Virus record (IMG/VR): IMGVR_UViG_3300011339_001230
Coordinates: 1 to 40,310 of that record
Length of the DNA stretch: 40,310 nt
Direction: 5' to 3' (one strand)
Source: a virus
Lineage: Duplodnaviria; Caudoviricetes
The stretch's first letter is position 1. Every line of letters begins with the position of its first letter. The notes below the pieces were generated by a model. The model was not told where the DNA came from. It ran no database searches and was given only the letters and a program-made list of their open reading frames with translations. Below are positions 4,752 through 36,949 of the stretch, one piece after another. A program made the position numbers and the translations under genes.

Positions 4752-5600
4752 GATTATCCATCAGGAAGTTGATGATGAGACCTTAGGGTTGATTCTGAGA
4801 CAACTGTAAATGATAATGGGCCGTGTATGGTCCTTAAATAAACTACGAAAGTAGGATAAAGTGACCTCCCCCGTGTTGAGGAGGTTGCGGTTTCGAAAGG
4901 AACTCGAGTACACAAGTGGGATATCACAAGACCTTTAGTACCGAGGGTAACACTGTAGGGAAAGTGGTCAGGTGACTTGGCAAAGTGGATTGTCAAGTTG
5001 AGGTGGGAACACCAACAAGAATAACCCATAGGAATCAAGTAAGAAATGTAGCCTCCAACTACAATATTGCGGGTTCCATTACCGAAGGGTACTTAAAACC
5101 GAAAGGTAAGGTAGAGAACGAGTGGTGTCGCTACTACCCCTAAGGAAGACCTACCAAGGTCTCTTTATGAAGTAATCTGAAAGTATGGAGATAGGGATAT
5201 CTCACGGAGTAGTTTAGTATTCTGTCGCTCAAAAGGAGACGGAACTTACGGTGGACCACTACTCTGACACATCCACGACACAATCTAAAATTATTAAAAA
5301 TAATTTAAGGAAAAGTGTCCATCAGGTTTAAGTGAAAGGTCACTACCTAATCACTGGCTGTCAGTGGTACAGAAAGACCCCAAGTCTGACTGTAGTTTTA
5401 CGAAAAACCTTTAATCCCGCAAGGATGAACTGGGGTGGCAACCTCGGAAAGAGTTAAGTAATAAGAGAGTAACTTAAACCTCAAGGAGTGGTAAACCTAA
5501 AAGACCGTGACTGAGAAATACTTCTCAAAAGGAAGTGGATAAGAAGGGAAACAATAATCCTTCAAAAGGTTCTCACAGAAAGCTGTAATCTCAGGCTTAG
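4752..5600 (+). ncRNA. Large structured ncRNA, GOLLD-like (boundaries approximate)
   Basis: ~850 nt without a credible ORF, GC above flanks, GNRA-capped hairpins (CTAC-GAAA-GTAG, ACC-GAAA-GGT, TCC-CGCAA-GGA), directly upstream of a tRNA in a phage; family assignment is from size and context. Confidence 0.65.
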
Positions 5601-13397: not shown

Positions 13398-13574
13398 ATG
13401 GAAGAGAATACAGAGATGAATAAAGTACATACAATCAGATTTGGTGAGTGGATTGCTCAAAATTACGAACCCTGTGGTGATAAGAGTTGGAAGAAAAGGT
13501 TCCCTAAGACATCAGAGGAAATGATGGAATGTTTTTTTACAGAGGAAATTTATAAAGAGTTTTTGAAATCATAG
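13398..13574 (+). CDS. Small hypothetical protein (58 aa, not in ORF track)
   Basis: MEENTEMNKVHTIRFGEWIAQNY...; stop codon overlaps the following tRNA-like element. Confidence 0.5.
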   Translation: MEENTEMNKVHTIRFGEWIAQNYEPCGDKSWKKRFPKTSEEMMECFFTEEIYKEFLKS

Positions 13575-13706
13575 TCAAGTGGCGGAAATGGAAGAGTACT
13601 CTCCAGGCAGACGTGACGCATGGTTATAGCAGCGTGGGTAATAAAGGTCAATGCGACTGGCTAACTATAATGGCACCCCGTGAAGGTTCGAACCCTTCCT
13701 TGACTA
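13573..13706 (+). ncRNA. Expanded tRNA-like RNA, copy 1
   Basis: AGTCAAG/CTTGACT-A acceptor, TGGCGGAAATGG D-arm start, GAAGG-TTCGAAC-CCTTC T-arm; 134 nt, no 7-nt anticodon loop. Confidence 0.75.
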
Positions 13707-13790
13707 CTTAAAAAAAATCACTTGAGGTATAAGTACAGCTTCTTGTGAAATAAATAATTGTACTAAAATTTAAACACGTTTTTCTTTTTT

Positions 13791-14906
13791 ATGAAAAAAA
13801 TTTTATTTTCTTTTATCCTGACCGTGTTGAGCTTGGTTTCCTTTGCTCAAATTTCGGTAGTTGATGTTATCGTCAACAGTCCTGACCATGACACATTGGA
13901 AGCCGCGGTAATTTATGCTGGTCTCGACGACGACTTATCTGGACCTGGTCCATTCACAGTTTTTGCACCAACTGACGCAGCTTTTGCGGCTCTTCCTGAT
14001 GGTACAATCTCTTACCTCCTTAACAACATCAGTGAACTACAAAGTATTTTGAGTTATCACGTTGCCTCGGGTAGTGTTTTATCTAGTAATTTGACAAACG
14101 GTCAAACAATCACAACATTGCAAGGTGAAGACATTACAGTTACAATAGGAATGAACGGTGTAATGATTAACAACGCCCTTGTCACAGTTGCTGACATTGT
14201 TTGCAGTAACGGTGTTGTACACGTAATTGATGTGGTTCTGTCTCAGCCAGTCTTTACGTCAAATGTTGTGGATGTAATTGTTAATAGCGATGTTCACACT
14301 ACACTTGAAGCGGCAGTTGTTGCCGCAGGTTTAGTAGAAACACTTAGTGGTGTTGGACCATTCACAGTATTTGCCCCTACAGATGCTGCTTTTGCAGCAC
14401 TTCCAGCTGGAACAATTGAGACTTTACTAGCTGACCCAACGGGTGACCTTACACAGATTCTTCTCTATCACGTAGTGGGAGCTCAAGCTCTTTCAACTGA
14501 CTTGACTGATGGACAGACTGTTGAGACACTACAAGGTCAAACTGTAACAGTTACTATTAACACACAGGGAGTATTCATCAATAATGCTCAAGTGATGGTT
14601 GCTGACTTCGTAACTGATAACGGTGTAGTTCACGTAATTGATGCGGTCCTTGTCCCACAAACACCAAACTCTGTATCAAACACTGAAACTGTTAGTTTGA
14701 ATATTCCGAACCCTGTAATGGAAAACATCAACATTCCTTCAACAGGTAATTCAAATGTTCAGATTTTCACAACTTCAGGTCAAGTTGTATATTCTCAAAA
14801 CTTCAATGGTTCAATTGACATTGATACCCGTAATCTCTCATCAGGTGTTTATCTTCTCCAAGTAGAAGCTGAAAACTTTAATGGAGTTACAAAAATCGTT
14901 AAGTAA
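13791..14906 (+). CDS. Secreted double-fasciclin (FAS1) protein with T9SS type-A C-terminal sorting domain
   Basis: Signal peptide; two copies of FTVFAPTDAAF...NGVVHVID; C-terminal PNPV...TTSGQVV...LSSGVYLLQV...KIVK. Confidence 0.9.
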   Translation: MKKILFSFILTVLSLVSFAQISVVDVIVNSPDHDTLEAAVIYAGLDDDLSGPGPFTVFAPTDAAFAALPDGTISYLLNNISELQSILSYHVASGSVLSSNLTNGQTITTLQGEDITVTIGMNGVMINNALVTVADIVCSNGVVHVIDVVLSQPVFTSNVVDVIVNSDVHTTLEAAVVAAGLVETLSGVGPFTVFAPTDAAFAALPAGTIETLLADPTGDLTQILLYHVVGAQALSTDLTDGQTVETLQGQTVTVTINTQGVFINNAQVMVADFVTDNGVVHVIDAVLVPQTPNSVSNTETVSLNIPNPVMENINIPSTGNSNVQIFTTSGQVVYSQNFNGSIDIDTRNLSSGVYLLQVEAENFNGVTKIVK

Positions 14907-14913
14907 AAAAATA

Positions 14914-14945
14914 AAATGGGAAGAGGGGAAACCTTCTTCCCATTT
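14914..14945 (+). terminator. Stem-loop, probable terminator
   Basis: AAATGGGAAGAGG-GGAAA-CCTTCTTCCCATTT. Confidence 0.7.
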
Positions 14946-15006
14946 GAAAATAAATTTGGTAGGAAGGATAATTTGACTTATCTTTGTAATCACAAATCAA
15001 TTAAAA

Positions 15007-15123
15007 ATGAAATACAACAACAATACACCTTTTGAAGAATTTATGTACCGTTTTGCGGTGGCTTTCGGAGTAACCGTAATCTTTTTAAATCTAATTATTT
15101 TGTGTTTTAAGTTGATTGGTTAA
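15007..15123 (+). CDS. Small single-TM protein (38 aa)
   Basis: ORF after a TATCTTTG promoter; hydrophobic C-terminal half. Confidence 0.45.
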   Translation: MKYNNNTPFEEFMYRFAVAFGVTVIFLNLIILCFKLIG

Positions 15124-15159
15124 GGTTTTAGCCTTATATTTGTAGAAGTTATTTGAAAT

Positions 15160-15184
15160 GCTGGGATGATGGAATCGGTAGACA
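15160..15184 (+). pseudogene. 5' fragment of a tRNA-Leu-like gene
   Basis: GCTGGGA-TG-ATGGAATCGGTAGACA after a promoter and boxA (15147); no matching 3' half. Confidence 0.6.
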
Positions 15185-15212
15185 GAAATGGGTAGACGAT
15201 ATATTTATACAT

Positions 15213-15857
15213 ATGAGACCATATGTATATAAATTAGAAAATTTGGACGGAGAGTTTTATTATGGGGTTAGATGGGATTATGAAGGAGAACCCGAAAATG
15301 ACTTACTTAAAGAATATTTTAGTTCATCCGTGACTGTTAAAAAAATGATTTCTGAAAATGGAATTAATTATTTTAAAGGTACAATACTTAAATTGTTTGA
15401 AACAAAAGAACAAGCTCTTGATTATGAATACACTCTAATAAAGGAATCTATTAATAATGATAAGTGTTTGAATAGAGCAATGGGTAAATGTACTATTTGG
15501 AATGATGAGTTGAAGAAAAAAGTTTCAGAAAGTGTAAAGGAATTATGGAAAAATCCTGAATTTAGGGAAAACCACCTTAAAAGTCGGTCAAATATTATAA
15601 ATCATAATTTTGGACTTAAACCTTGGAGAAATGTTTGTTCAGATTTGGAAAGTTGGAAAAAAGCTATTATAATTTATAACGATTATAAGACTGAAAAGTG
15701 GAACTTACACAAATATGGTTTTGGGAGATTTTTTCTAATAAAAAGATATGGAATCAAACAAGGCTCGGCTAGAAGGTTAGTTGATTTGTTAAGAGAAGGT
15801 TGGAACCCATATGATGATTTGGATTATTTGAATTTCATAGATATGCCCGGATGCTGA
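15213..15857 (+). CDS. GIY-YIG homing endonuclease (Seg-like)
   Basis: PYVYKLE...FYYGVR, YFSSS, ALDYE, CLN motifs; TATTTATA at 15202; 3' end overlaps tRNA-Leu. Confidence 0.75.
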   Translation: MRPYVYKLENLDGEFYYGVRWDYEGEPENDLLKEYFSSSVTVKKMISENGINYFKGTILKLFETKEQALDYEYTLIKESINNDKCLNRAMGKCTIWNDELKKKVSESVKELWKNPEFRENHLKSRSNIINHNFGLKPWRNVCSDLESWKKAIIIYNDYKTEKWNLHKYGFGRFFLIKRYGIKQGSARRLVDLLREGWNPYDDLDYLNFIDMPGC

Positions 15858-15927
15858 AATGGTATACAGTGCAGACTTAAAATCTGCTGAGCAATTGCTC
15901 GTGAGGGTTCGAGTCCCTCTCCGGGTA
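15845..15927 (+). tRNA. tRNA-Leu(TAA)
   Basis: GCCCGGA/TCCGGGT; GCAGA-CTTAAAA-TCTGC; long variable arm. Confidence 0.95.
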
Positions 15928-15963
15928 CCGAAGACTTTTTTGTACCTAATGATGAAAATTTTT

Positions 15964-15991
15964 AAATCCTGGAATATGTCAGGATTTTTTT
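15964..15991 (+). terminator. Intrinsic terminator
   Basis: AAATCCTG-GAATATGT-CAGGATTT followed by Ts. Confidence 0.75.
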
Positions 15992-16126
15992 ACCTAAACT
16001 TATTTAATGACAAAAAGTGAAAATTCATATCTTGATTTAGCAATTATAGGTTTTTACGTATATTTGTTCATAGTTTTAGTAATAACAATCAAAACCGAAA
16101 AAAATAAATTTTAAAATTATAATATC

Positions 16127-16405
16127 ATGCCAACAGTATACACTTATGTTGAAACAGATGTCGATGTGGACATCGAAGTTAATGAATTTGTTAGTTCCTG
16201 TAACCCAAGAGAAATAAAAGAATTGGTACAGGCTTTAATTGAAGATGGACATATTAAAACATCTGCAATTGCACCATCTCCTGACCGAATGACCGCTCAA
16301 GAGATTGAATTTGGTAAAATGTTATCATTGTTATCAGAAAAATATCATCAGATGGATATTTCTGAGATTAATGTGATTGAAGAATTATACAAAAAATATC
16401 GGTAA
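16127..16405 (+). CDS. Hypothetical protein
   Basis: 92-aa ORF. Confidence 0.75.
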   Translation: MPTVYTYVETDVDVDIEVNEFVSSCNPREIKELVQALIEDGHIKTSAIAPSPDRMTAQEIEFGKMLSLLSEKYHQMDISEINVIEELYKKYR

Positions 16406-16406
16406 T

Positions 16407-16613
16407 ATGGATGAAATTTTAGATGAAAAACTACCGTTAAGCTCGCACTGGGAAAAAAATCTCAATGAATTTAATTTGTCTGAGGAAATAATTGATAGAA
16501 TCGAACGTCTTCGTTATAACGATGGAGTTATGATGAAGAAGTATATGGATGAGGCAAATGAATGGAGAGTAAAATACTTTACACTTCAGAGACAATTGAG
16601 GGATTTACTATGA
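16407..16613 (+). CDS. Hypothetical protein
   Basis: ATG directly after the previous stop. Confidence 0.65.
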   Translation: MDEILDEKLPLSSHWEKNLNEFNLSEEIIDRIERLRYNDGVMMKKYMDEANEWRVKYFTLQRQLRDLL

Positions 16614-16754
16614 TATTTACTATTAAAAATTTAGAGCTTTTATTAATTGCCATTTGGGTTATAATAGCTCTTGGATACCTAATAACCGATTTTTACAAAA
16701 ATAATGTTGATAACTAGATTTTGTAGTTAAGGTTGTTCGTCGTATATTTGTGGT

Positions 16755-17237
16755 ATGAATAACGAACTAAAATACATTTCTACCAAAGATGCAATTATCG
16801 GTTACAGTGATTCTTTAATTGCCAAAAGTGAAACCAACGATTGTGTAGTCAGAGCAATCTCATCGGCATTTGAAATGCACTATGATGAGGCTCATCAGTT
16901 TGTTAAAGTAAAGTTTGGTCGCAAGGACCGTAAAGGCACCGCATTCTTCGTTGGTGGAATGCGTCGTATGGTTGATGATAAAGTTAAAATCAACGGTAAG
17001 TCATTCCAAACAATGGGTAATGAATACGGTCACGTTAGTTACGAAGTTAAAGTAAAAGGTCAGATTGTTAAACGTAATATGACAACTGGTACGTTCATCA
17101 AGAAATACCCTACCGGTAAATACCTTGTTGTTGTTCGTGGTCACGCATTTTCAATCATCGATGGCGCTGTTGTTGGAAACACTTCTGATGCAACGATGAA
17201 GAAACGAGTTATTAACAACGCATTTAAGATTTGTTAA
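16755..17237 (+). CDS. Hypothetical protein with NDCVVRA...H motif (possible papain-like fold)
   Basis: Cys and His motifs; ATG 4 nt after TATATTTG. Confidence 0.7.
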   Translation: MNNELKYISTKDAIIGYSDSLIAKSETNDCVVRAISSAFEMHYDEAHQFVKVKFGRKDRKGTAFFVGGMRRMVDDKVKINGKSFQTMGNEYGHVSYEVKVKGQIVKRNMTTGTFIKKYPTGKYLVVVRGHAFSIIDGAVVGNTSDATMKKRVINNAFKIC

Positions 17238-17289
17238 TATTGGGATAATATAATTTGTTGTATATTTGTCTACTTAAAAAATAAAAACT

Positions 17290-17430
17290 ATGGAATTTAT
17301 CGGAGTATACAAGAAAAGCAAAATGATTGGTATGATTGACCTTGATGAAATCACTGTCGAGCTACTTGATAGAATGTTTCACGAAGGTTACGAATTTAGT
17401 AAAATCACAAAAAAAGATTTGGTCAGTTAG
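17290..17430 (+). CDS. Small hypothetical protein (46 aa)
   Basis: ORF after TATATTTG and an A-rich leader. Confidence 0.5.
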   Translation: MEFIGVYKKSKMIGMIDLDEITVELLDRMFHEGYEFSKITKKDLVS

Positions 17431-17453
17431 AAAAGTCACCATATATTTGTCAA

Positions 17454-17762
17454 ATGAAAGAACAAGAATTTGAAGCAATAGGTAAGGTTATGGACTACTT
17501 TGACTTCGGTCGGGTTCATAAGGTAATGGAAGCTCTTGATTGGAAATGGTCAACTCTTGATGACGGCCCAAGGGTTCCCGATGAATGTGAAATCCGTACC
17601 GAGGCGAGAAGATTATTGACACAAGCTGTTAAGGAAAAAATGTCAATTGCAATAGGTGGATTTTATGCCACATACCGGAACGATGATGATATTGAATGGG
17701 TTGATTTGAAGTTTGTTGTTGAGCAGTGGGATGAAATAATTGAAAAAGATTTGGCAGAATAA
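17454..17762 (+). CDS. Hypothetical phage protein
   Basis: FDFGRVHKVMEALDWKW; ATG 4 nt after TATATTTG. Confidence 0.75.
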   Translation: MKEQEFEAIGKVMDYFDFGRVHKVMEALDWKWSTLDDGPRVPDECEIRTEARRLLTQAVKEKMSIAIGGFYATYRNDDDIEWVDLKFVVEQWDEIIEKDLAE

Positions 17763-17797
17763 AAGATTCTCCGTATATTTGTAGAAGTTCTTTGACA
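17751..17797 (+). promoter_or_regulatory. Promoter plus boxA heading the ncRNA array
   Basis: TTGG...CGTATATTTGT followed by AGTTCTTTGACA (17786-17797). Confidence 0.7.
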
Positions 17798-17803
17798 TTA
17801 ACA

Positions 17804-17925
17804 GGTGGGGTGACAGACGAAAGTTAGATTATCCAAGTCAATCGTAGCTACGGTGTTTTAAAACACGATGGATATGCAACAAGTAGAGTTATAGGAAATG
17901 AGTCGCTATCATTTCTCCCCCACCG
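17804..17925 (+). ncRNA. Structured RNA with tRNA-like ends
   Basis: GGTGGGG/CCCCACC closing stem; GAAATGA-GTCGCTA-TCATTTC hairpin in the T-arm position. Confidence 0.55.
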
Positions 17926-17934
17926 CATATTAAA

Positions 17935-18022
17935 AGGTTGATTGGGATTTTGGGGCTAGCACAATAGCGAGAAACGCCAATCGTAAAAGTAGATGTCCAC
18001 TCCCCCATCTTCTACTTATCCT
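17935..18022 (+). ncRNA. Structured RNA module with possible pseudoknot
   Basis: GATTGG/CCAATC stem; AAGTAGA/TCTACTT hairpin whose loop CCCCA can pair with TGGGG. Confidence 0.45.
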
Positions 18023-18029
18023 ATACTTG

Positions 18030-18112
18030 TGTGTTGTTCCCTTGAGAAAGGAAAGGAGTAGAGCTTAGTGACACTAGAGTCATCACTACAACACAGAGGG
18101 ATTCTCATCCTC
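18030..18112 (+). ncRNA. Kissing-loop RNA motif, copy A
   Basis: TGTGTTGT/ACAACACA, TTCC/GGAA with loop TGAGAA, GAGGG/TCCTC with loop TTCTCA. Confidence 0.7.
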
Positions 18113-18117
18113 AATAT

Positions 18118-18199
18118 AGTCAGGTGGCGCAAGGGTAGCGCGATGGTGGACCGAAAGGAAGCAAACCATAGGTTACAAGTTCAAATCTTGTCCTGACTA
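18118..18199 (+). ncRNA. Expanded tRNA-like RNA, copy 2
   Basis: AGTCAGG/CCTGACT-A; D and T arms present; ATGGT/ACCAT stem closes a 17-nt loop containing CC-GAAA-GG. Confidence 0.75.
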
Positions 18200-18203
18200 C
18201 AAA

Positions 18204-18279
18204 TGTGTTGTTCCCTTGAGAAAGGAATTAGTTGGTAGGTCATCCAGTTATGACACAACACAGAGGACTTCTCATCCTC
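18204..18279 (+). ncRNA. Kissing-loop RNA motif, copy B
   Basis: Same conserved blocks as 18030-18112 with a different middle hairpin. Confidence 0.7.
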
Positions 18280-18285
18280 AAATGA

Positions 18286-18365
18286 TACAACCGAGATTTT
18301 TAAATCTCCTACTTACTTACGAAAGGAAGGGTGTTGTAACAGATAGCATATAGTAGTGATGCTAT
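18286..18365 (+). ncRNA. Structured RNA module with possible pseudoknot
   Basis: TACAAC/GTTGTA, GAGATTT/AAATCTC, ATAGCAT/ATGCTAT; loop AGTAG pairs with CTACT. Confidence 0.5.
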
Positions 18366-18372
18366 TAAACAT

Positions 18373-18482
18373 AGTCAGGTGGCGGAATGGTAGACGCTAC
18401 ACGTAAGTCCAACGATGACCAAAGGCATGATGACCTGCGGAGTTACTGGTTGGTAATACACGTTCGATTCGTGTCCTGACTA
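18373..18482 (+). ncRNA. Expanded tRNA-like RNA, copy 3
   Basis: AGTCAGG/CCTGACT-A; Leu-type D arm GGCGGAATGGTAGACGC; ACACG-TTCGATT-CGTGT; 110 nt. Confidence 0.78.
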
Positions 18483-18497
18483 CAAAAATAAAAAGTT

Positions 18498-18680
18498 ATG
18501 TTAGAGAAAATTTACTTTACTGTGGTAATCGTATTAGTTTTAGTAATTTTTGGTAGTTGGATTTTAATGAATGTAGATGAAGAACGTGAAGATATGTGGT
18601 ATAAAATCACTCTAACAACTTCAATGTTAGAGATGATGTTTATCTTTGGGGGTATGATTGCATCTATATGGTTAAACTAA
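18498..18680 (+). CDS. Small two-TM membrane protein
   Basis: 60 aa, two hydrophobic segments. Confidence 0.65.
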   Translation: MLEKIYFTVVIVLVLVIFGSWILMNVDEEREDMWYKITLTTSMLEMMFIFGGMIASIWLN

Positions 18681-18684
18681 AAAT

Positions 18685-18999
18685 AGTCAGGTTAAAGAAA
18701 TACAGAGTGGCGCAGGTTGATACTACTTCGCAAGTAGATTGATACAGAGTAAAAAGAGGTGGGGGAAACCACTCATTAACCCACCCAATTTTGTACCACG
18801 AAGCTTACCATAAGAACAGCTCACTTCAGTGGTCATTTCAAAACTATGAATAGCCCAAGGCATAAGTAGTGGAGGTCGGTCAGGTAATGCGTAATGTGGA
18901 AACGGCTATCACATCCTTAAAAACACCACGGTCCATAACCATTTGGACGCGAGAAGTTATAGGGTTGCATCGTTGTGGGTTCAAGTCCCACCCTGGCCA
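18685..18999 (+). ncRNA. Expanded tRNA-like RNA, copy 4 (5' end at 18685 or 18878)
   Basis: GTGGG-TTCAAGT-CCCAC-CCTGGCC-A 3' end pairs with GGTCAGG (18878) or, less well, AGTCAGG (18685); several internal hairpins. Confidence 0.55.
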
Positions 19000-19075
19000 C
19001 AAAAATTTAACAAATTGGATTTGGTAGATTAGAAAAACGAATGTATATTTGTCAAATCAATAACAGAAACAATAT

Positions 19076-19198
19076 ATGAAGACACTTAAAAAATTTCATC
19101 AAGAGCTTGAAAAAGGATGTCATCCGTTTGACCCTATGATTATTTACATTTTTGGTGTTATTATTGTTGGTTATTCATTGATACAGATAATTTTTTGA
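19076..19198 (+). CDS. Small single-TM protein (40 aa)
   Basis: ORF after a TATATTTG promoter. Confidence 0.45.
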   Translation: MKTLKKFHQELEKGCHPFDPMIIYIFGVIIVGYSLIQIIF

Positions 19199-19214
19199 TA
19201 ACTAAAAATAATAT

Positions 19215-19326
19215 AGTCAGGTGGCGGAATTGGTAACGCACATACAACGAGAGCTAGGCCGGCTCGCCTGTAAAACCAGTAAGTTGTATGGTGGTATAAA
19301 TAGGGGTTCGAATCCTCTCTTGACTA
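19215..19326 (+). ncRNA. Expanded tRNA-like RNA, copy 5
   Basis: AGTCAGG/CTTGACT-A; 8-bp CATACAAC/GTTGTATG stem enclosing 34 nt instead of an anticodon loop. Confidence 0.78.
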
Positions 19327-19414
19327 CAAAAAATAAGGTGACGCTACGGTCGTAAGGTTCGCGAGCCGAGAAGACAAAAAGCCTAAGTATGCAGATGAGC
19401 TCGCATAGCCTTAA

Positions 19415-19508
19415 AGTCAGATGGCGAAATTGGTAGACGCAGCCTCAAGAAAGGTTGGACTAATAGGAAGAATAAATCCACTTGCAGGTTCAAGTCCTGT
19501 TCTGACTA
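19415..19508 (+). ncRNA. Expanded tRNA-like RNA, copy 6
   Basis: AGTCAGA/TCTGACT-A; Leu-type D arm; AGCCT/AGGTT stem with a 6-nt loop; enlarged variable arm. Confidence 0.75.
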
Positions 19509-19590
19509 CAAAAAATTGTTGATAAAAAAATCATCAATATTTTTTTACTTTGAAAAATCGTAGTATCTTTGTTCTCTAAATAATAATACA

Positions 19591-21240: not shown

Positions 21241-21312
21241 GGTGGTGTAGCTCAGAGGCAGAGCATCTGACTGTTAATCAGAGGGTCGGGATATCGTAAT
21301 TCCCCACTACCG
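21241..21312 (+). tRNA. tRNA-Asn(GTT), atypical T-loop
   Basis: GGTGGTG/CACTACC; TCTGA-CTGTTAA-TCAGA; T-loop ATCGTAA. Confidence 0.85.
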
Positions 21313-21322
21313 CAAAAAAAAC

Positions 21323-21399
21323 GCTCGGTTCGTCTAATTGGTTAGGACATCTCCCTTTCACGGAGAAGCTTACGGGTTCGAGTCCCGTACCGAGTACCA
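21323..21399 (+). tRNA. tRNA-Glu(TTC)
   Basis: TCTCC-CTTTCAC-GGAGA; encoded CCA. Confidence 0.95.
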
Positions 21400-21402
21400 T
21401 AT

Positions 21403-21483
21403 GGGAGTGTCGTATAGTGGCAATTACATCTGACTGTAAATCAGACGCTTTAGGCTTCAGAGGTTCGAGTCCTCTCACTCCCA
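21403..21483 (+). tRNA. tRNA-Tyr(GTA)
   Basis: TCTGA-CTGTAAA-TCAGA; variable arm. Confidence 0.95.
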
Positions 21484-21489
21484 CTTATT

Positions 21490-21564
21490 GACTTCGTAGC
21501 TCAGTTGGTTTAGAGCAATACACTTTTAATGTATGGGTCCTGGGTTCGAATCCCAGCGGGGTCA
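21490..21564 (+). tRNA. tRNA-Lys(TTT)
   Basis: ATACA-CTTTTAA-TGTAT. Confidence 0.95.
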
Positions 21565-21571
21565 CTTATAC

Positions 21572-21646
21572 ACATTTGTGGTGAAATTGGTTTTATCACG
21601 CTAGTCTCCAAAACTAGTATTTTTGGTTCGAGTCCAAACAAATGTG
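21572..21646 (+). tRNA. tRNA-Trp(CCA)
   Basis: CTAGT-CTCCAAA-ACTAG. Confidence 0.92.
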
Positions 21647-21652
21647 CGACAA

Positions 21653-21723
21653 GCCTCTATAGTTAAAAGGTATAACGATTGATTTGTAATCAATTGTTCT
21701 TGGTTCGATTCCGAGTAGAGGCT
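21653..21723 (+). tRNA. tRNA-Thr(TGT)
   Basis: ATTGA-TTTGTAA-TCAAT. Confidence 0.93.
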
Positions 21724-21730
21724 CAAATAT

Positions 21731-21805
21731 TCTCGCGTAGCTCAGGTGGTTTAGAGCATTTGACTGATATTCAAAAGGTCGCTGGTTCGAGTCCAGCCGT
21801 GAGAA
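21731..21805 (+). tRNA. tRNA-Ile(GAT)
   Basis: TTTGA-CTGATAT-TCAAA. Confidence 0.93.
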
Positions 21806-21811
21806 CTATTA

Positions 21812-21886
21812 CGAGATGTAGCTCAGTTGGTTTAGAGTACTTGGTTTGGGACCAAGGGGCCGCTGGTTCGAGTCCAGCCATCTCGA
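21812..21886 (+). tRNA. tRNA-Pro(TGG)
   Basis: CTTGG-TTTGGGA-CCAAG. Confidence 0.95.
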
Positions 21887-21897
21887 CAATTTAAAAT

Positions 21898-21972
21898 GGG
21901 GGCGCATGTACCAAGGCTTGGCGAGAAACACTTGCAATGTTTCTGTGGTCGTTTCGATTACGACCGTCTCCA
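21898..21972 (+). tRNA. tRNA-Ala(TGC), atypical D arm
   Basis: AAACA-CTTGCAA-TGTTT; G3:U70; A73. Confidence 0.85.
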
Positions 21973-21983
21973 CAATATAATAT

Positions 21984-22056
21984 GGTACCATAGCTCAGTT
22001 GGTAGAGCACTTGCCTGAAGAGCAAGGTGTCGGTGGTTCGAATCCACCTGGTACCA
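21984..22056 (+). tRNA. tRNA-Phe(GAA)
   Basis: CTTGC-CTGAAGA-GCAAG. Confidence 0.95.
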
Positions 22057-22066
22057 CTTTTTATAA

Positions 22067-22139
22067 GCGGGTATAGTATAAAGGCTTATTATGTCGGTCT
22101 TCCAAACCGAGGATGTGAGTTCGATTCTCACTACCCGCT
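22067..22139 (+). tRNA. tRNA-Gly(TCC)
   Basis: TCGGT-CTTCCAA-ACCGA. Confidence 0.95.
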
Positions 22140-22146
22140 CTTATAT

Positions 22147-22218
22147 GGTCTATTCGTTCATCGGCTAGGATGCTACCCTGTCACGGTAGTGAGGCGGGTT
22201 CGATTCCCGCATAGACCG
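22147..22218 (+). tRNA. tRNA-Asp(GTC)
   Basis: CTACC-CTGTCAC-GGTAG. Confidence 0.95.
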
Positions 22219-22225
22219 CTTAAAT

Positions 22226-22297
22226 TGCCCTGTAGTGAAATGGCTATCACACAACACTTTGACTGTTGTATTTCTGGTTCGAGTCCAGACGGGGTAA
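22226..22297 (+). tRNA. tRNA-Gln(TTG)
   Basis: CAACA-CTTTGAC-TGTTG. Confidence 0.93.
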
Positions 22298-22304
22298 CTA
22301 AATT

Positions 22305-22389
22305 AGAGGAGTCGCATAGTGGTTTAGTGCACCGGTCTTGAAAACCGGAGTACCTTCGGGTTCCGTGAGTTCGAATCTCACCTCCTCTG
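22305..22389 (+). tRNA. tRNA-Ser(TGA)
   Basis: CCGGT-CTTGAAA-ACCGG; long variable arm. Confidence 0.95.
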
Positions 22390-22395
22390 CAAATT

Positions 22396-22476
22396 GCCCT
22401 CTTGGTGGAATGGTAGACACGTATGCCTTAGGAGCATATGTCTTATGACGTGTAGGTTCGAGTCCTACAGGGGGTA
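22396..22476 (+). tRNA. tRNA-Leu(TAG)
   Basis: TATGC-CTTAGGA-GCATA; variable arm. Confidence 0.95.
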
Positions 22477-22485
22477 CTATTATAT

Positions 22486-22560
22486 GGTGTCTATAGTGTC
22501 AGCGGTTTAGCACGATGGGTTGTGGTTCCATTAGCACCAGTTCGAATCTGGTTAGACACA
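22486..22560 (+). tRNA. tRNA-His(GTG)
   Basis: ATGGG-TTGTGGT-TCCAT; encoded G-1. Confidence 0.92.
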
Positions 22561-22563
22561 CTA

Positions 22564-22611
22564 TTTGTTTTATTGGAATTTTAGCCGTATATTTGTAAAA
22601 GTTATTTGAAA
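22564..22611 (+). promoter_or_regulatory. Promoter plus boxA-like site
   Basis: TTTG...GCCGTATATTTGT followed by AGTTATTTGAAA (22600-22611). Confidence 0.65.
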
Positions 22612-22616
22612 TATAT

Positions 22617-22690
22617 AGTCGGATAGCTTAGGTGGTGAGAGCGGCACGCTTATACCGTGATGGTCGTGGGTTCAACTCCCACTCCGACTA
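22617..22690 (+). tRNA. tRNA-Ile(TAT)
   Basis: AGTCGGA/TCCGACT-A; CACG-CTTATAC-CGTG. Confidence 0.85.
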
Positions 22691-22756
22691 CAACTGAAAA
22701 ATTATAGTCTATCTTAACTCATAGTTTGTTTAAGATATTTACTATAAAACCTAACA

Positions 22757-34145: not shown

Positions 34146-34405
34146 TGCACGATAGAAAAATTATGTTTAGATTATTTTGGGCGATAATTGTAATTGCTTC
34201 GTTGTCGATAATGACATTGATGGTTGGTTGTTCTGAAAGACAAAAACAAAAAGAAGTTGGTGTATATAATGTGGACACTTTATCACATACCAATTACTCC
34301 ATTTATATCATAGATAGTTGTGAGTATATAATTTTCTATGGAGGTAGTTCGACTTGGGGAAGTCATAAAGGAAATTGTAATAACCCAATTCATGCGAATC
34401 ATTGA
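34145..34405 (+). CDS. Small lipoprotein/membrane protein
   Basis: Hydrophobic N-terminus with VGC; IDSCEYI...HKGNCNNPIH. Confidence 0.72.
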   Translation: MHDRKIMFRLFWAIIVIASLSIMTLMVGCSERQKQKEVGVYNVDTLSHTNYSIYIIDSCEYIIFYGGSSTWGSHKGNCNNPIHANH

Positions 34406-35117
34406 AAGATTTGTAAAAAATGATACACCATATTTGGGGAGATTAGTGTTAAGATTGGAGAGAAATTCAAATTATAGAAGTATAAAAAAAGGTTATTTGA
34501 ATAAAATCCATCTAAAATTTTTATTTTTCAAATTAGTTACGAGATTAATCCCTGAGATTAATGATAATAAATTAATCCCTGACCCTGATAAGGTTGCCCT
34601 TATTGAAAAATATACCGGCGGAATAATTGTGGAAAGAAGAGTAAAGGAAAAAGAATTAAATGATGCTTTAATAACTAAGCATAATTTCTTAACTAAAGAT
34701 AAAAGAATGGTTGGGGATATTTTTACGGCGTGGGATTACTTTAAAAATCAAATGGTTATTGTGGAAGAAAATCCAAAAGGGGTTGCTTTAGTTTATAAAG
34801 ATAGAAAACCATATGAATATTTGGTAATTACTGATAACGAAAAAATATCAGTTAAAATAGGGGATAGAATTTTTAACGAGAATTATATGTCCAGTATGGC
34901 TAACTATAAAAAAGAAGATTGGAAAAAATGGTATAAAAAATATATTAGGGATTATCATAGGGCTGATGAAAAAAATAAAAAAAGGATTAAGTCGGGAGGT
35001 GTTATAAAATATATCCCCTATAATATGAGAGGAATACAAAAAATTAAAACTCTAGAAGAAGCTAAAATAACCGCAATAAATATAATTAAACAAATTAGTA
35101 AAGATGATAAAAAATAG
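34392..35117 (+). CDS. Hypothetical protein, paralog of the next gene
   Basis: Shares TPY.GR..L..E, LNK.HL, KYTGG, KIGDRIF with 35104-35859. Confidence 0.75.
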   Translation: MRIIERFVKNDTPYLGRLVLRLERNSNYRSIKKGYLNKIHLKFLFFKLVTRLIPEINDNKLIPDPDKVALIEKYTGGIIVERRVKEKELNDALITKHNFLTKDKRMVGDIFTAWDYFKNQMVIVEENPKGVALVYKDRKPYEYLVITDNEKISVKIGDRIFNENYMSSMANYKKEDWKKWYKKYIRDYHRADEKNKKRIKSGGVIKYIPYNMRGIQKIKTLEEAKITAINIIKQISKDDKK

Positions 35118-35859
35118 AACACCATATGTCGGAAGAGTTAGATTAAAATTTGAAAAAAACCCTCACTATACCGGCGGTAAAAGTGGAGTATTAAATAAAG
35201 TTCATTTAAATCTTGGATTTACAAAACTTGTTAGCCGAATGATTCCATATCGCAACGAAGGTGCTTGGGTTGTTAATAGTGAGTGTACAAAACTTATAAC
35301 GAAATATACTGGCGGTAAGATTGGTACTCACACATTTCATGATGGGGAACACCAACTTCCAAATTCTTTTATGACAAATGACGGAACTTATATTGGTAAT
35401 ATTGAAACGGCTTGGTGGTTTTATAATAACAATCTATATGTTTGTCGCGACTATCCTAGTGGTGTTGCAATCAAATTGAAATCTTATAATCCAAAAATAA
35501 CTTTGGTGAATTACATTGAGGATAACTATGAAAATTTCATAACAGAACAAATAGAAAATGATAACATTGAAGGTTATTATGGGTATAGTCATCGAGGAGG
35601 TTCCTTATTCAAAATAGGTGATAGAATTTTTGACAATTACTACCTACCAACAAGAAGTGATTACACCCAAGAAGAATGGGATGGGTATTATAAAAAATAT
35701 CAAGATAGTTTAAGTAAAGCAGATGAGTTTGACAAAAAGTGGATTGTTTCAGATGGAATTGCATCAGTAATTCCATTTAACAAAAGAGGAAAAAAAGTTA
35801 TTGAAAATTGGAAAGAAGCGAGAGAAGCTGCTATTATTTTATCAAAATATTTAGGATAG
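35104..35859 (+). CDS. Hypothetical protein, paralog of the previous gene
   Basis: YYGYSHRG...FKIGDRIF motif. Confidence 0.78.
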   Translation: MIKNRTPYVGRVRLKFEKNPHYTGGKSGVLNKVHLNLGFTKLVSRMIPYRNEGAWVVNSECTKLITKYTGGKIGTHTFHDGEHQLPNSFMTNDGTYIGNIETAWWFYNNNLYVCRDYPSGVAIKLKSYNPKITLVNYIEDNYENFITEQIENDNIEGYYGYSHRGGSLFKIGDRIFDNYYLPTRSDYTQEEWDGYYKKYQDSLSKADEFDKKWIVSDGIASVIPFNKRGKKVIENWKEAREAAIILSKYLG

Positions 35860-35887
35860 TTCCTATATATTTTGTATTTTTGTATTC

Positions 35888-36949
35888 ATGAACGAGGTTT
35901 TGAATAGATATTATGAGAAAGGATTGGTGTATAAACAAGTACATCCAACCCTTCCTTTAACTATTTGGAATTACTCTGAAAAGGTTCAATACGAAGGTCT
36001 ATTCGATGGTGTTACCCTGAATGCTAGAGGACTTGTTACCGATAACGATGGTAAAATAGCTGCACGACCATTTAAAAAGTTCTTCAATGTAGAGGAGAAC
36101 AAGCATACCCCAACTGAAGAATTTGATGTTTATGAAAAGATGGACGGGTCTTTAGGTATCCTATTTAATTATCAAGGTGAATGGGTAATGGCGACTCGCG
36201 GGTCCTTCACATCAGAACAAGCCGTCAAAGGACTTGAAATACTTCAAAATTATGACTATCAGAAACTTCATAAGGGATATACTTATTTGTTTGAAATCAT
36301 ATACAAAGAGAACAGAATAGTGGTTCAATATGACTACGATGACTTGATACTTCTTGGAATGATAGAAACCAAAACTGGCTATGAAGTTGATTTGTATGGT
36401 GAAGGAAACGATGTTAGATTGAAAAATTTGATATCTAATCTCGGGCTCAAAGTCGTTAAAAAATATGATGGTATAAACGACTATTCTGTCCTCAAAGGAA
36501 TGATAAAGGATAACGAAGAAGGATATGTTGTAAGGTTCTCCAATGGTGACAGAATAAAAATCAAAGGGGAAGAATATTTAAAATTACATAAACTTATGAC
36601 AAATGTATCTACCACCGCAATATGGGAAATGTTAAGTGAGGGTCGTGATGTGTTGGAAATACTGAAAGATGTTCCTGATGAGTTCTATAACAAGATAAAG
36701 ATGTATGTTAGAGATTTAAAATACACTTATTTTTCTTTGAGTGAATATGCCGGAAAAACTCACGATGGGTTCCGATATGGAAAGTTTGGTGATAAGGACC
36801 CCGAGCCAACCAAAAAAGAGTTTGCCGAGTTTTTATCGATGAATAAATATAATCCGGTAATAAGAGCCATATGCTTTGCCATTTGGGACAAAAAGGATTA
36901 TGATAAAATAATATGGAAACATATAAAACCTGAATTTAAAAAATTATGA
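35888..36949 (+). CDS. T4 Rnl1-like RNA ligase
   Basis: RGLV, PFKKFFN, EKMDGSL (motif I), FE, EGYVV, KIK. Confidence 0.9.
   Translation: MNEVLNRYYEKGLVYKQVHPTLPLTIWNYSEKVQYEGLFDGVTLNARGLVTDNDGKIAARPFKKFFNVEENKHTPTEEFDVYEKMDGSLGILFNYQGEWVMATRGSFTSEQAVKGLEILQNYDYQKLHKGYTYLFEIIYKENRIVVQYDYDDLILLGMIETKTGYEVDLYGEGNDVRLKNLISNLGLKVVKKYDGINDYSVLKGMIKDNEEGYVVRFSNGDRIKIKGEEYLKLHKLMTNVSTTAIWEMLSEGRDVLEILKDVPDEFYNKIKMYVRDLKYTYFSLSEYAGKTHDGFRYGKFGDKDPEPTKKEFAEFLSMNKYNPVIRAICFAIWDKKDYDKIIWKHIKPEFKKL

What the first reader, a model, noticed from the sequence alone, without database searches (positions are those of the whole stretch)
13573..19508. Family of six tRNA-shelled RNAs with a constant acceptor stem and unrelated, expanded anticodon domains
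Seen: elements at 13573-13706, 18118-18199, 18373-18482, 18685/18878-18999, 19215-19326 and 19415-19508. All have an (A/G)GTCA(G/A)(G/A) acceptor strand with a matching 3' strand, discriminator A and a normal T-arm. Five also have a TGGCG... D-arm, mostly Leu-type (GGCGGAATGGTAGACGC). Acceptor changes are compensatory (AGTCAAG/CTTGACT, AGTCAGG/CCTGACT, AGTCAGA/TCTGACT). None has a 7-nt anticodon loop: the interiors include a 17-nt loop with a GAAA hairpin, a 34-nt insert in an 8-bp stem, a 6-nt loop, and inserts in the D-loop and variable arm. Known: RNase P, RNase Z and CCA-adding enzyme read the acceptor/T domain, and bacterial LeuRS relies on A73 and elbow shape rather than the anticodon. 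Inference: a conserved shell with variable cargo suggests selection rather than decay. They may be processed, possibly aminoacylated, non-decoding RNAs acting as decoys for tRNA-targeting defence nucleases, sRNA scaffolds, or processing punctuation that releases neighbouring RNAs.
Basis: partly seen in the sequence, partly recalled or inferred. Interest (0 to 1): 0.88.

Follow-up and report, generated by a model that had tools for sequence, protein, structure and literature searches.

The report
Phage tRNA frames with swappable interiors
A freshwater phage carries six small RNA genes that keep the outer frame of a leucine tRNA but have no code-reading arm; they belong to a large, almost phage-only family with hundreds of different conserved interiors, and the frame likely serves as a handle that lets the host cut out and stabilise these RNAs, whose job is untested.

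Summary
Confirmed. All six elements are in the window and none can be spliced into an ordinary tRNA. They belong to a large phage family: about 600 IMG/VR stretches (estimate), against 8 stretches on six short MAG contigs in GTDB. The frame comes from tRNA-Leu and is selected as a fold: T-stem, D-stem and the 15:48 pair covary. The 'constant' acceptor is only the majority form: in an acceptor-blind scan 18 of 111 members have a different but paired stem, some around the same interiors, which argues against it being an identity code. Interiors are not decay: 219 families among 299 sequences, with compensatory stems, and invariant loops in the E1 family (12 sequences). Close relatives gain and lose whole modules. 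Neighbouring RNAs include a second, non-tRNA frame with variable interiors. Best reading (0.5): natural tRNA scaffolds, matured by host enzymes, that display a diverse set of structured RNA domains, probably host-protein ligands. T5 RNA1/RNA2 and T4 RnaC have the same layout and no known function, so the kind is old; I found the family in neither Rfam nor ten paper searches. Discrete transcripts, charging and targets are not shown.

The parts
13573..13706 (+). E1: tRNA-Leu-type frame with a D-loop insertion; interior = 4-bp helix with a 12-nt loop, a second branched helix, predicted 7-bp loop-loop pairing
   Evidence: 12 distinct sequences; 9 of 24 pairs change on both sides; loop-loop pairs invariant
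17750..17781 (+). Bacteroidota-type promoter-like site at the head of the RNA cluster
   Evidence: 21 such sites in the window against 3.8 expected; function inferred
17803..17927 (+). Module A: structured RNA without tRNA frame, not in Rfam
   Evidence: homologues in 2 loci
17935..18022 (+). Module B: constant-ends, variable-interior RNA (frame B)
   Evidence: 6 distinct full matches
18028..18114 (+). Frame C copy 1: closing stem, internal hairpin, variable interior, 3' hairpin; the two hairpin loops are complementary
18118..18199 (+). E2: tRNA frame, 5-bp stem with a 17-nt loop; no orthologue in my sample
18204..18279 (+). Frame C copy 2, different interior
18284..18366 (+). Module D: two hairpins, no tRNA frame
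   Evidence: homologue in 1 locus
18373..18482 (+). E3: tRNA frame with a 59-nt interior, conserved in other phages
   Evidence: 4 distinct sequences including the window
18685..18692 (+). Lone 5' acceptor strand, likely remnant of a lost frame
   Evidence: absent at the matching place in the closest relative
18700..18794 (+). Module E: conserved structured RNA without tRNA frame
   Evidence: 11 loci
18795..18876 (+). Module F: RNA module without tRNA frame
   Evidence: 1 locus
18878..18999 (+). E4: tRNA frame with atypical D-arm; its interior also occurs in a differently built frame (L197)
19020..19051 (+). Second promoter-like site, ahead of E5 and E6
   Evidence: kept in the closest relative
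19215..19326 (+). E5: tRNA frame, 8-bp stem with forked 34-nt insert; same interior inside a different acceptor stem in a 61-kb phage record
19334..19412 (+). Module G: hairpin-rich spacer RNA; no homologue among my loci
19415..19508 (+). E6: tRNA frame, short stem with 6-nt loop and enlarged variable arm; no orthologue in my sample

Best explanation
These are six members of a phage RNA family that keeps the fold of a leucine tRNA's outer frame around unrelated, separately conserved interior domains; the frame likely acts as a natural scaffold that host tRNA-maturation enzymes would cut out of a long transcript and stabilise, and the interior is probably the working part, likely a ligand for host proteins. 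Shown: the frame's origin and covariation, absence of an anticodon arm, conserved structured interiors, modular gain and loss. Inferred: transcription from the upstream promoters, RNase P and 3' processing with CCA addition, stability. Conjectured: the interiors bind and neutralise or redirect host factors (defence proteins are the most likely class, given the arms-race pattern of diversity), and new combinations arise by recombination in the constant arms.
For: Frame selected as a 3D fold: A15 goes with U48 in 159 of 170 and G15 with C48 in 4 of 7; D-loop GG in 194 of 207; T- and D-stems covary. Acceptor pairing kept while its sequence changes: 18 of 18 divergent stems pair at 6 or 7 of 7. 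Same 3' signature as the phages' decoding tRNAs: C after the discriminator in 198 of 200 members and 224 of 225 ordinary tRNAs, CCA rarely encoded. Interiors under their own selection: E1 family has 9 of 24 pairs changed on both sides, 0 of 500 shuffles, with invariant loops while the D-loop, T-stem and acceptor vary; 20 of 46 multi-member families show a compensatory stem. One interior occurs without a tRNA frame (L186) and others inside different acceptors. A second, non-tRNA frame in the same cluster also carries variable interiors. Engineered tRNA scaffolds built from the same three arms are processed and stable in E. coli (PMC3753655, passages).
Against: No discrete transcript, end or CCA was shown; RNA runs were contigs only and can contain DNA. 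No target or partner: the commonest neighbouring protein family is in only 20 of about 290 loci. 167 of 219 interior families are singletons in my sample, so selection on them is untested, and E2 and E6 are among them. Interiors fold only modestly better than shuffles (median z -0.6, n=205). Most frames keep the elements that LeuRS reads, so the frame itself could be the active part.
Confidence: 0.5

Rival explanations
1. The frame is the working part: a non-decoding tRNA mimic, possibly leucylated, that soaks up enzymes which read the tRNA elbow or 3' end (toxins, nucleotidyltransferases, EF-Tu competitors); the interior only has to fold and to hide any cleavable anticodon loop.
For: A73 in 93 of 111, U48 in 102 of 111; A14 in 184 of 207; a helix ending next to position 48, as in a long variable arm, in 104 of 183 against 54 expected. 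A. aeolicus LeuRS needs A73, the core contacts and variable-arm orientation but not the anticodon arm (PMC2377443, abstract). Charged but non-decoding irregular tRNAs near toxin-antitoxin loci have precedent (PMC5389517 section 16).
Against: 18 of 111 lack A73. Host tRNA-Leu acceptors start with G-C, the family's majority with A-G-U. Invariant unpaired interior bases in the E1 family and non-redundant interiors within a genome (0 of 237 pairs share a family) are not needed by a frame-only decoy.
Confidence: 0.2
2. The frames are processing punctuation that release neighbouring RNAs or mRNAs from a long transcript, as tRNA-like elements do in organelles.
For: All 513 neighbouring frames and tRNAs within 1 kb are on the same strand; 14 of 25 frame-C RNAs are followed within 14 nt by a tRNA frame; no terminator-like site with a T run on the + strand within 17781-19510 (one listed hairpin at 18610 lies inside an ORF).
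Against: Does not explain hundreds of conserved interiors; ordinary tRNAs would do; 52 of 189 have no other frame or tRNA within 1 kb. Likely a side benefit.
Confidence: 0.12
3. The elements are selfish or nearly neutral mobile modules that spread by recombination in their constant arms and survive because a tRNA-like fold is harmless.
For: Whole-module gain and loss between close relatives; same interiors in phages of very different size; majority acceptor looks like a founder effect.
Against: Compensatory changes and tertiary covariation need selection on the RNA; no mobilising enzyme is linked.
Confidence: 0.12
4. They are decaying tRNA-Leu pseudogenes.
For: Frame derives from tRNA-Leu; broken copies exist (18685 remnant; unpaired acceptors in 4 of 111).
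Against: Covariation in frame and interiors; family size.
Confidence: 0.04
5. They are intron-containing tRNAs that splice to ordinary tRNAs (the window has an Rnl1-type ligase).
For: RNA ligase at 35888-36949; one family-type acceptor surrounds a canonical Leu(UAG) arm in L015.
Against: No single excision from the loop gives a canonical anticodon arm in any of the six, while 4 of 4 control tRNAs with a 30-nt insert were recovered; no conserved exon halves beside the frame; interiors of 37-55 nt (quartiles) are too short for self-splicing introns.
Confidence: 0.02

Closest known systems
Phage T5 RNA1 and RNA2 (AY543070, annotated 'tRNA-like stable RNA with unknown functions')
   Same: In a phage tRNA cluster among other unexplained stable RNAs; acceptor stem and T-arm around an enlarged interior; RNA1 has a Leu-type D-arm, RNA2 a T-arm like the family's.
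   Different: No interior similarity to any of 299 family interiors; different acceptors; two genes in one coliphage against hundreds of interior families in freshwater phages.
Phage T4 RnaC / RnaD (species 1 and 2 RNA, AF158101)
   Same: RnaC has a T-arm and acceptor-like ends around a long interior and lies in the tRNA cluster; late RNAs of unknown function, RnaC probed by Northern (PMC9697503, passages).
   Different: No Leu-type D-arm; no sequence similarity; no T-arm found in RnaD by my pattern.
Engineered tRNA scaffold (Ponchon and Dardel; PMC3753655)
   Same: Acceptor, T- and D-arms kept, anticodon arm replaced by another RNA so that host enzymes process and protect it (passages).
   Different: Natural; interiors replace both anticodon and variable arms and are not closed by one simple stem (15 of 183 against 12 expected).
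Allo-tRNAs and polycistronic irregular tRNAs (PMC5389517)
   Same: Arrays of irregular tRNAs, some charged but not used in translation, near toxin-antitoxin genes (section 16).
   Different: Those have 8/4 or 9/3 acceptor branches and keep an anticodon arm; these are 7/5 and have none.
tmRNA tRNA-like domain; YrlA Y RNAs
   Same: tRNA-like frame without anticodon, attached to another domain (own knowledge).
   Different: No G3:U70 in 111 members, too short for a tag frame; no Rfam tmRNA or YrlA match at cut-off.

Membership tests
Decoding tRNA-Leu | Leu-type D-arm and T-arm | tested here: met
   The D-arm motif marks tRNA-Leu in 27 of 27 tRNAs called in 29 Bacteroidota loci
Decoding tRNA-Leu | 5-bp anticodon stem with 7-nt loop, U33 and purine 37 | tested here: not met
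   0 of 6
Decoding tRNA-Leu | Leucylation by LeuRS | not testable with these tools
   A73 and core contacts mostly kept
Intron-containing tRNA | One excision restores a canonical anticodon arm | tested here: not met
   0 of 6; controls 4 of 4; none in parsed orthologues
T5 RNA1/RNA2, T4 RnaC type stable RNAs | Acceptor stem and T-arm around an enlarged interior without anticodon arm | tested here: met
T5 RNA1/RNA2, T4 RnaC type stable RNAs | Lies in or near a phage tRNA cluster | tested here: met
   Array at 21241-22691; across the family 97 of 189 within 1 kb of a tRNA
T5 RNA1/RNA2, T4 RnaC type stable RNAs | Homologous interior sequence | tested here: not met
   No BLAST match of the three RNAs to family interiors at E 0.5
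T5 RNA1/RNA2, T4 RnaC type stable RNAs | Accumulates as a discrete stable RNA | tested here: inconclusive
   Only contigs of RNA runs, no ends or strand
tmRNA | G3:U70 acceptor and tag reading frame | tested here: not met
   0 of 111 with G3:U70; no ARAGORN tmRNA in the window
Allo-tRNA | 8/4 or 9/3 acceptor/T-stem | tested here: not met
   All six are 7/5
YrlA Y RNA | Rfam RF02553 match | tested here: not met
   No match on the six elements

The most novel reading that the evidence does not exclude
Freshwater Bacteroidota phages run a modular RNA-display system: a few constant, self-closing frames (the tRNA-Leu frame, frame C, frame B) into which hundreds of structured RNA domains are swapped by recombination, giving each phage a non-redundant arsenal of RNA sponges against host defence proteins, an RNA counterpart of anti-defence protein islands.
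Probability: 0.25. Interest if true: 0.9.

Novelty: new variant of a known kind. Interest (0 to 1): 0.64.

Why it matters
T4 RnaC/RnaD and the T5 tRNA-like stable RNAs have stood in annotations without a function for decades, as isolated cases. This family supplies hundreds of natural variants, separates what is selected in the frame (fold, not acceptor sequence) from what is selected in the interior, and so makes frame-versus-interior swap experiments possible. If the interiors are protein ligands it is a large, unexplored class of phage RNA effectors and a natural precedent for the engineered tRNA scaffold. It also matters for annotation: ARAGORN gave an isotype or undetermined call to many family members (67 calls among 226 candidates, a few of them true tRNAs), which would mislead phage tRNA and genetic-code surveys.

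Tried and rejected
1. Interiors are generally pseudoknots: many looked so and terminal pseudoknots were 84 of 183 against 37 in shuffles, but given a terminal helix, crossing was no commoner than in shuffles (0.45 against 0.41); kept only for single families such as E1, where the pairing is invariant and so not proved by covariation. 2. Interiors are captured spacers or guides: of 294 interiors, 29 hit DNA outside recognised frames and nearly all were unmasked or truncated frames; one real unframed copy, five weak hits. Host genomes were not searched with interiors. 3. Interiors mimic or target 23S rRNA: 9- to 11-mers at background in both senses; sense 12-mers 14 against 6 (max 10 of 20 shuffles), scattered; inconclusive. 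4. A dedicated partner enzyme: none found. 5. Acceptor as a synthetase code: rejected as a family-wide rule. 6. Cultured phage with a member: best BLAST rows in 50,697 phage records were short T-arm or D-arm matches for a typical member (40 of 651 rows seen) and chance-level for frame C; only one uncultured record matched E5. 7. A strain-level read comparison of the cluster could not be obtained, so substitution rates in frame against interior among near-identical strains are open. 8. Parts of the window without RNA-contig cover are no evidence of silence.
Full report
Setting. The window is a 40-kb virus record. It holds a GOLLD RNA at 5205-5597, 19 ARAGORN tRNAs, proteins with type IX secretion tails, DnaK and an Rnl1-type ligase, and 21 TTTG..TAnnTTTG sites against 3.8 expected. 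The secretion tails and this promoter form point to a Bacteroidota host (own knowledge; inference). Runs that hold half or more of the region's words are riverine, freshwater and sediment metagenomes and one coded organism; the best may be the source sample.

Observation. The six elements are present as described. None is called by ARAGORN, and three score on the Rfam tRNA model. Five lie in a 1.7-kb, nearly gene-free cluster behind a promoter-like site at 17750-17781; E1 stands alone between two ORFs.

Family. A pattern for the frame matched 125 stretches in 13 of 64 parts of IMG/VR, about 600 estimated. In GTDB genomes it matched 8 stretches on six contigs of 1-7.5 kb in MAGs labelled as unrelated taxa; in the five MAGs checked all matches lie on one contig, and 1 of 401 genomes of the phylum of the Chitinophagaceae-labelled MAG matched, that MAG itself. 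I read these as binned phage contigs. Five large phage records of 233-476 kb hold 1 to 5 copies each.

The frame. Its D-arm motif marks tRNA-Leu in 27 of 27 tRNAs called in 29 host-phylum loci, and some share the T-arm. Among 207 members, D-loop GG is present in 194; of 184 with A14, A15 goes with U48 in 159 of 170 and G15 with C48 in 4 of 7 (Fisher p 1e-4, sequences not independent); T- and D-stems show compensatory pairs. The first pattern fixed the acceptor, so I repeated the scan without it: of 111 distinct matches, 61 have the exact majority acceptor and discriminator, 93 are within one change on the 5' strand, 18 differ by two or more and all 18 still pair at 6 or 7 of 7; 4 of 111 pair at 5 or fewer; the discriminator is A 93, G 9, U 7, C 2; none has G3:U70. 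Several divergent acceptors enclose interiors of the same families as majority members (E5's interior in record MW202828). So the fold is selected and the majority acceptor is most simply a founder sequence. The base after the discriminator is C in 198 of 200 members and 224 of 225 ordinary tRNAs of the same loci, with CCA encoded in 5 and 25, consistent with a shared maturation route.

The interiors. After dropping canonical tRNAs and one mis-parsed element, 299 non-canonical members fall into 219 interior clusters, 167 of them singletons (Chao1 about 600). No position next to the frame is conserved above 47%. Interiors fold somewhat better than shuffles (median z -0.6, n=205). Among 183 representatives of 30-80 nt, a helix ending within 2 nt of position 48 occurs in 104 against 54 +/- 6, the geometry of a long variable arm. 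A general pseudoknot rule failed its control. For E1, 19 IMG/VR stretches gave 12 distinct sequences with the window; 9 of 24 pairs change on both sides, 0 of 500 shuffles reach this and slid controls give 0-3. All four pairs of the helix at the anticodon position covary, while its 12-nt loop and a complementary 3' segment are invariant; the search pattern fixed the loop but not the 3' segment. E3 has 4 distinct sequences, E4 3 and E5 4; E2 and E6 have none in my sample. No excision from the loop yields a canonical anticodon arm in any of the six, whereas 4 of 4 control tRNAs were recovered.

Modularity. The closest relative found (85% identity in the adjacent ORF) keeps modules B, C1, E and E4 at 90-99% identity in the same order, lacks A, E2, C2, D, E3, F, E5 and E6 at that place, and has three other framed RNAs instead; breaks fall in short A/U-rich linkers. 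Within loci, 0 of 237 pairs share an interior family; random drawing would give under one, so this only says that copies are not recent local duplicates, and one duplicated pair visible in L076 did not enter the count. One interior occurs in a tRNA array without a tRNA frame (L186). The unframed modules of the cluster include a second system: frame C (two copies here) has constant ends, 25 distinct copies and 17 interior clusters, with complementary hairpin loops (95% of cells paired, one two-sided change; weak covariation because it hardly varies), and 14 of 25 are followed at once by a tRNA frame. Frame B behaves alike in 6 copies. None matches Rfam. No protein family accompanies the elements: the top one, DUF932-like, is in 20 of about 290 loci.

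Expression. Four RNA runs from three studies hold contigs over the cluster, including near-identical pieces of modules A, B, C and E, and joints at module borders, one with depth 2288 joining a frame-C end to a tRNA-frame start on a 20-letter side. Contigs also cover two ORFs and the tRNA array. They show neither strand, ends nor level, may hold DNA and mostly come from relatives, so this is a weak hint.

Mechanism. Shown: Leu-derived frame selected as a fold; no decoding arm; interiors selected separately; whole-module turnover. Inferred: co-transcription (513 of 513 neighbours on the same strand), release by RNase P and 3' trimming with CCA addition, stability as in engineered scaffolds (PMC3753655, passages). 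Conjectured: the interiors bind host proteins, defence factors being the likeliest. I put this at 0.5. The main rival (0.2) is a frame-only, possibly leucylated decoy, since LeuRS of A. aeolicus needs A73, the core contacts and variable-arm orientation but not the anticodon arm (PMC2377443, abstract). Punctuation is probably a side benefit: 52 of 189 elements have no frame or tRNA within 1 kb.

Known relatives. T5 RNA1 and RNA2 and T4 RnaC have the same layout but unrelated interiors. T4 RnaC and RnaD are late RNAs of unknown function (PMC9697503, passages); a 1978 catalogue of tRNA-like RNAs of T-even phages appears in the reference list of PMC11143913 (passages; the 1978 paper itself not read). 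Allo-tRNAs differ in architecture (PMC5389517, passages and section 16). The main text of the 224-motif survey mentions tRNA only for GOLLD and ROOL (PMC5737381, passages); its supplements were not read and may bear on novelty. Ten searches (listings only unless cited above) found no description of this family; the library lacks most subscription papers. Earlier notes of this scan describe the same family in other genomes; they are not independent evidence, and I reached the T4/T5 comparison before reading those that name it.

Verdict. Real, selected, non-decoding RNAs; a new, very large variant of a kind known only from single unexplained T4 and T5 genes. Function untested. Interest 0.64.

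Noticed in passing
window 18028-18114 and 18204-18279: Frame C: a non-tRNA constant frame with variable interior and complementary hairpin loops; 25 distinct copies, hits in about 50 loci, not in Rfam. Deserves its own study.
   Followed up: partly
window 17803-18022, 18284-18366, 18700-18876: Further conserved RNA modules (A, B, D, E, F) without Rfam match; B also has constant ends and a variable interior.
   Followed up: partly
window 15160-15929: A 5' half of a tRNA-Leu, then a 234-aa ORF with a weak GIY-YIG match, then a complete tRNA-Leu(UAA): looks like a homing endonuclease inserted at a tRNA gene.
   Followed up: no
window 21897-21972: tRNA-Ala(UGC)-like gene with an odd D-arm inside the tRNA array, missed by ARAGORN and Rfam.
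   Followed up: no
window 22617-22691: tRNA-Ile(UAU), a rare anticodon in bacteria, whose acceptor resembles the family's majority acceptor.
   Followed up: no
window 34338-36949: Two ORFs matching the Thoeris inhibitor Tad6 profile (one over, one under the cut-off) followed by an Rnl1-type RNA ligase.
   Followed up: no
window 4900-5597: About 300 nt of ORF-poor, structured-looking sequence directly upstream of the GOLLD RNA, with no Rfam match.
   Followed up: no
L015 2501-2582: A family-type acceptor around a canonical Leu(UAG) anticodon arm and variable arm: possible ancestor-like or reverted member.
   Followed up: no
L069 807-1041; L039 4208-4702: A degenerate RNase P-like match (50 bits, under the cut-off) inside a phage tRNA array, and a phage tmRNA beside framed RNAs.
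   Followed up: no
L186 about 5455-5530 (minus strand): An interior known from a tRNA frame sits between tRNA genes inside a different short closing stem with no T-arm.
   Followed up: partly
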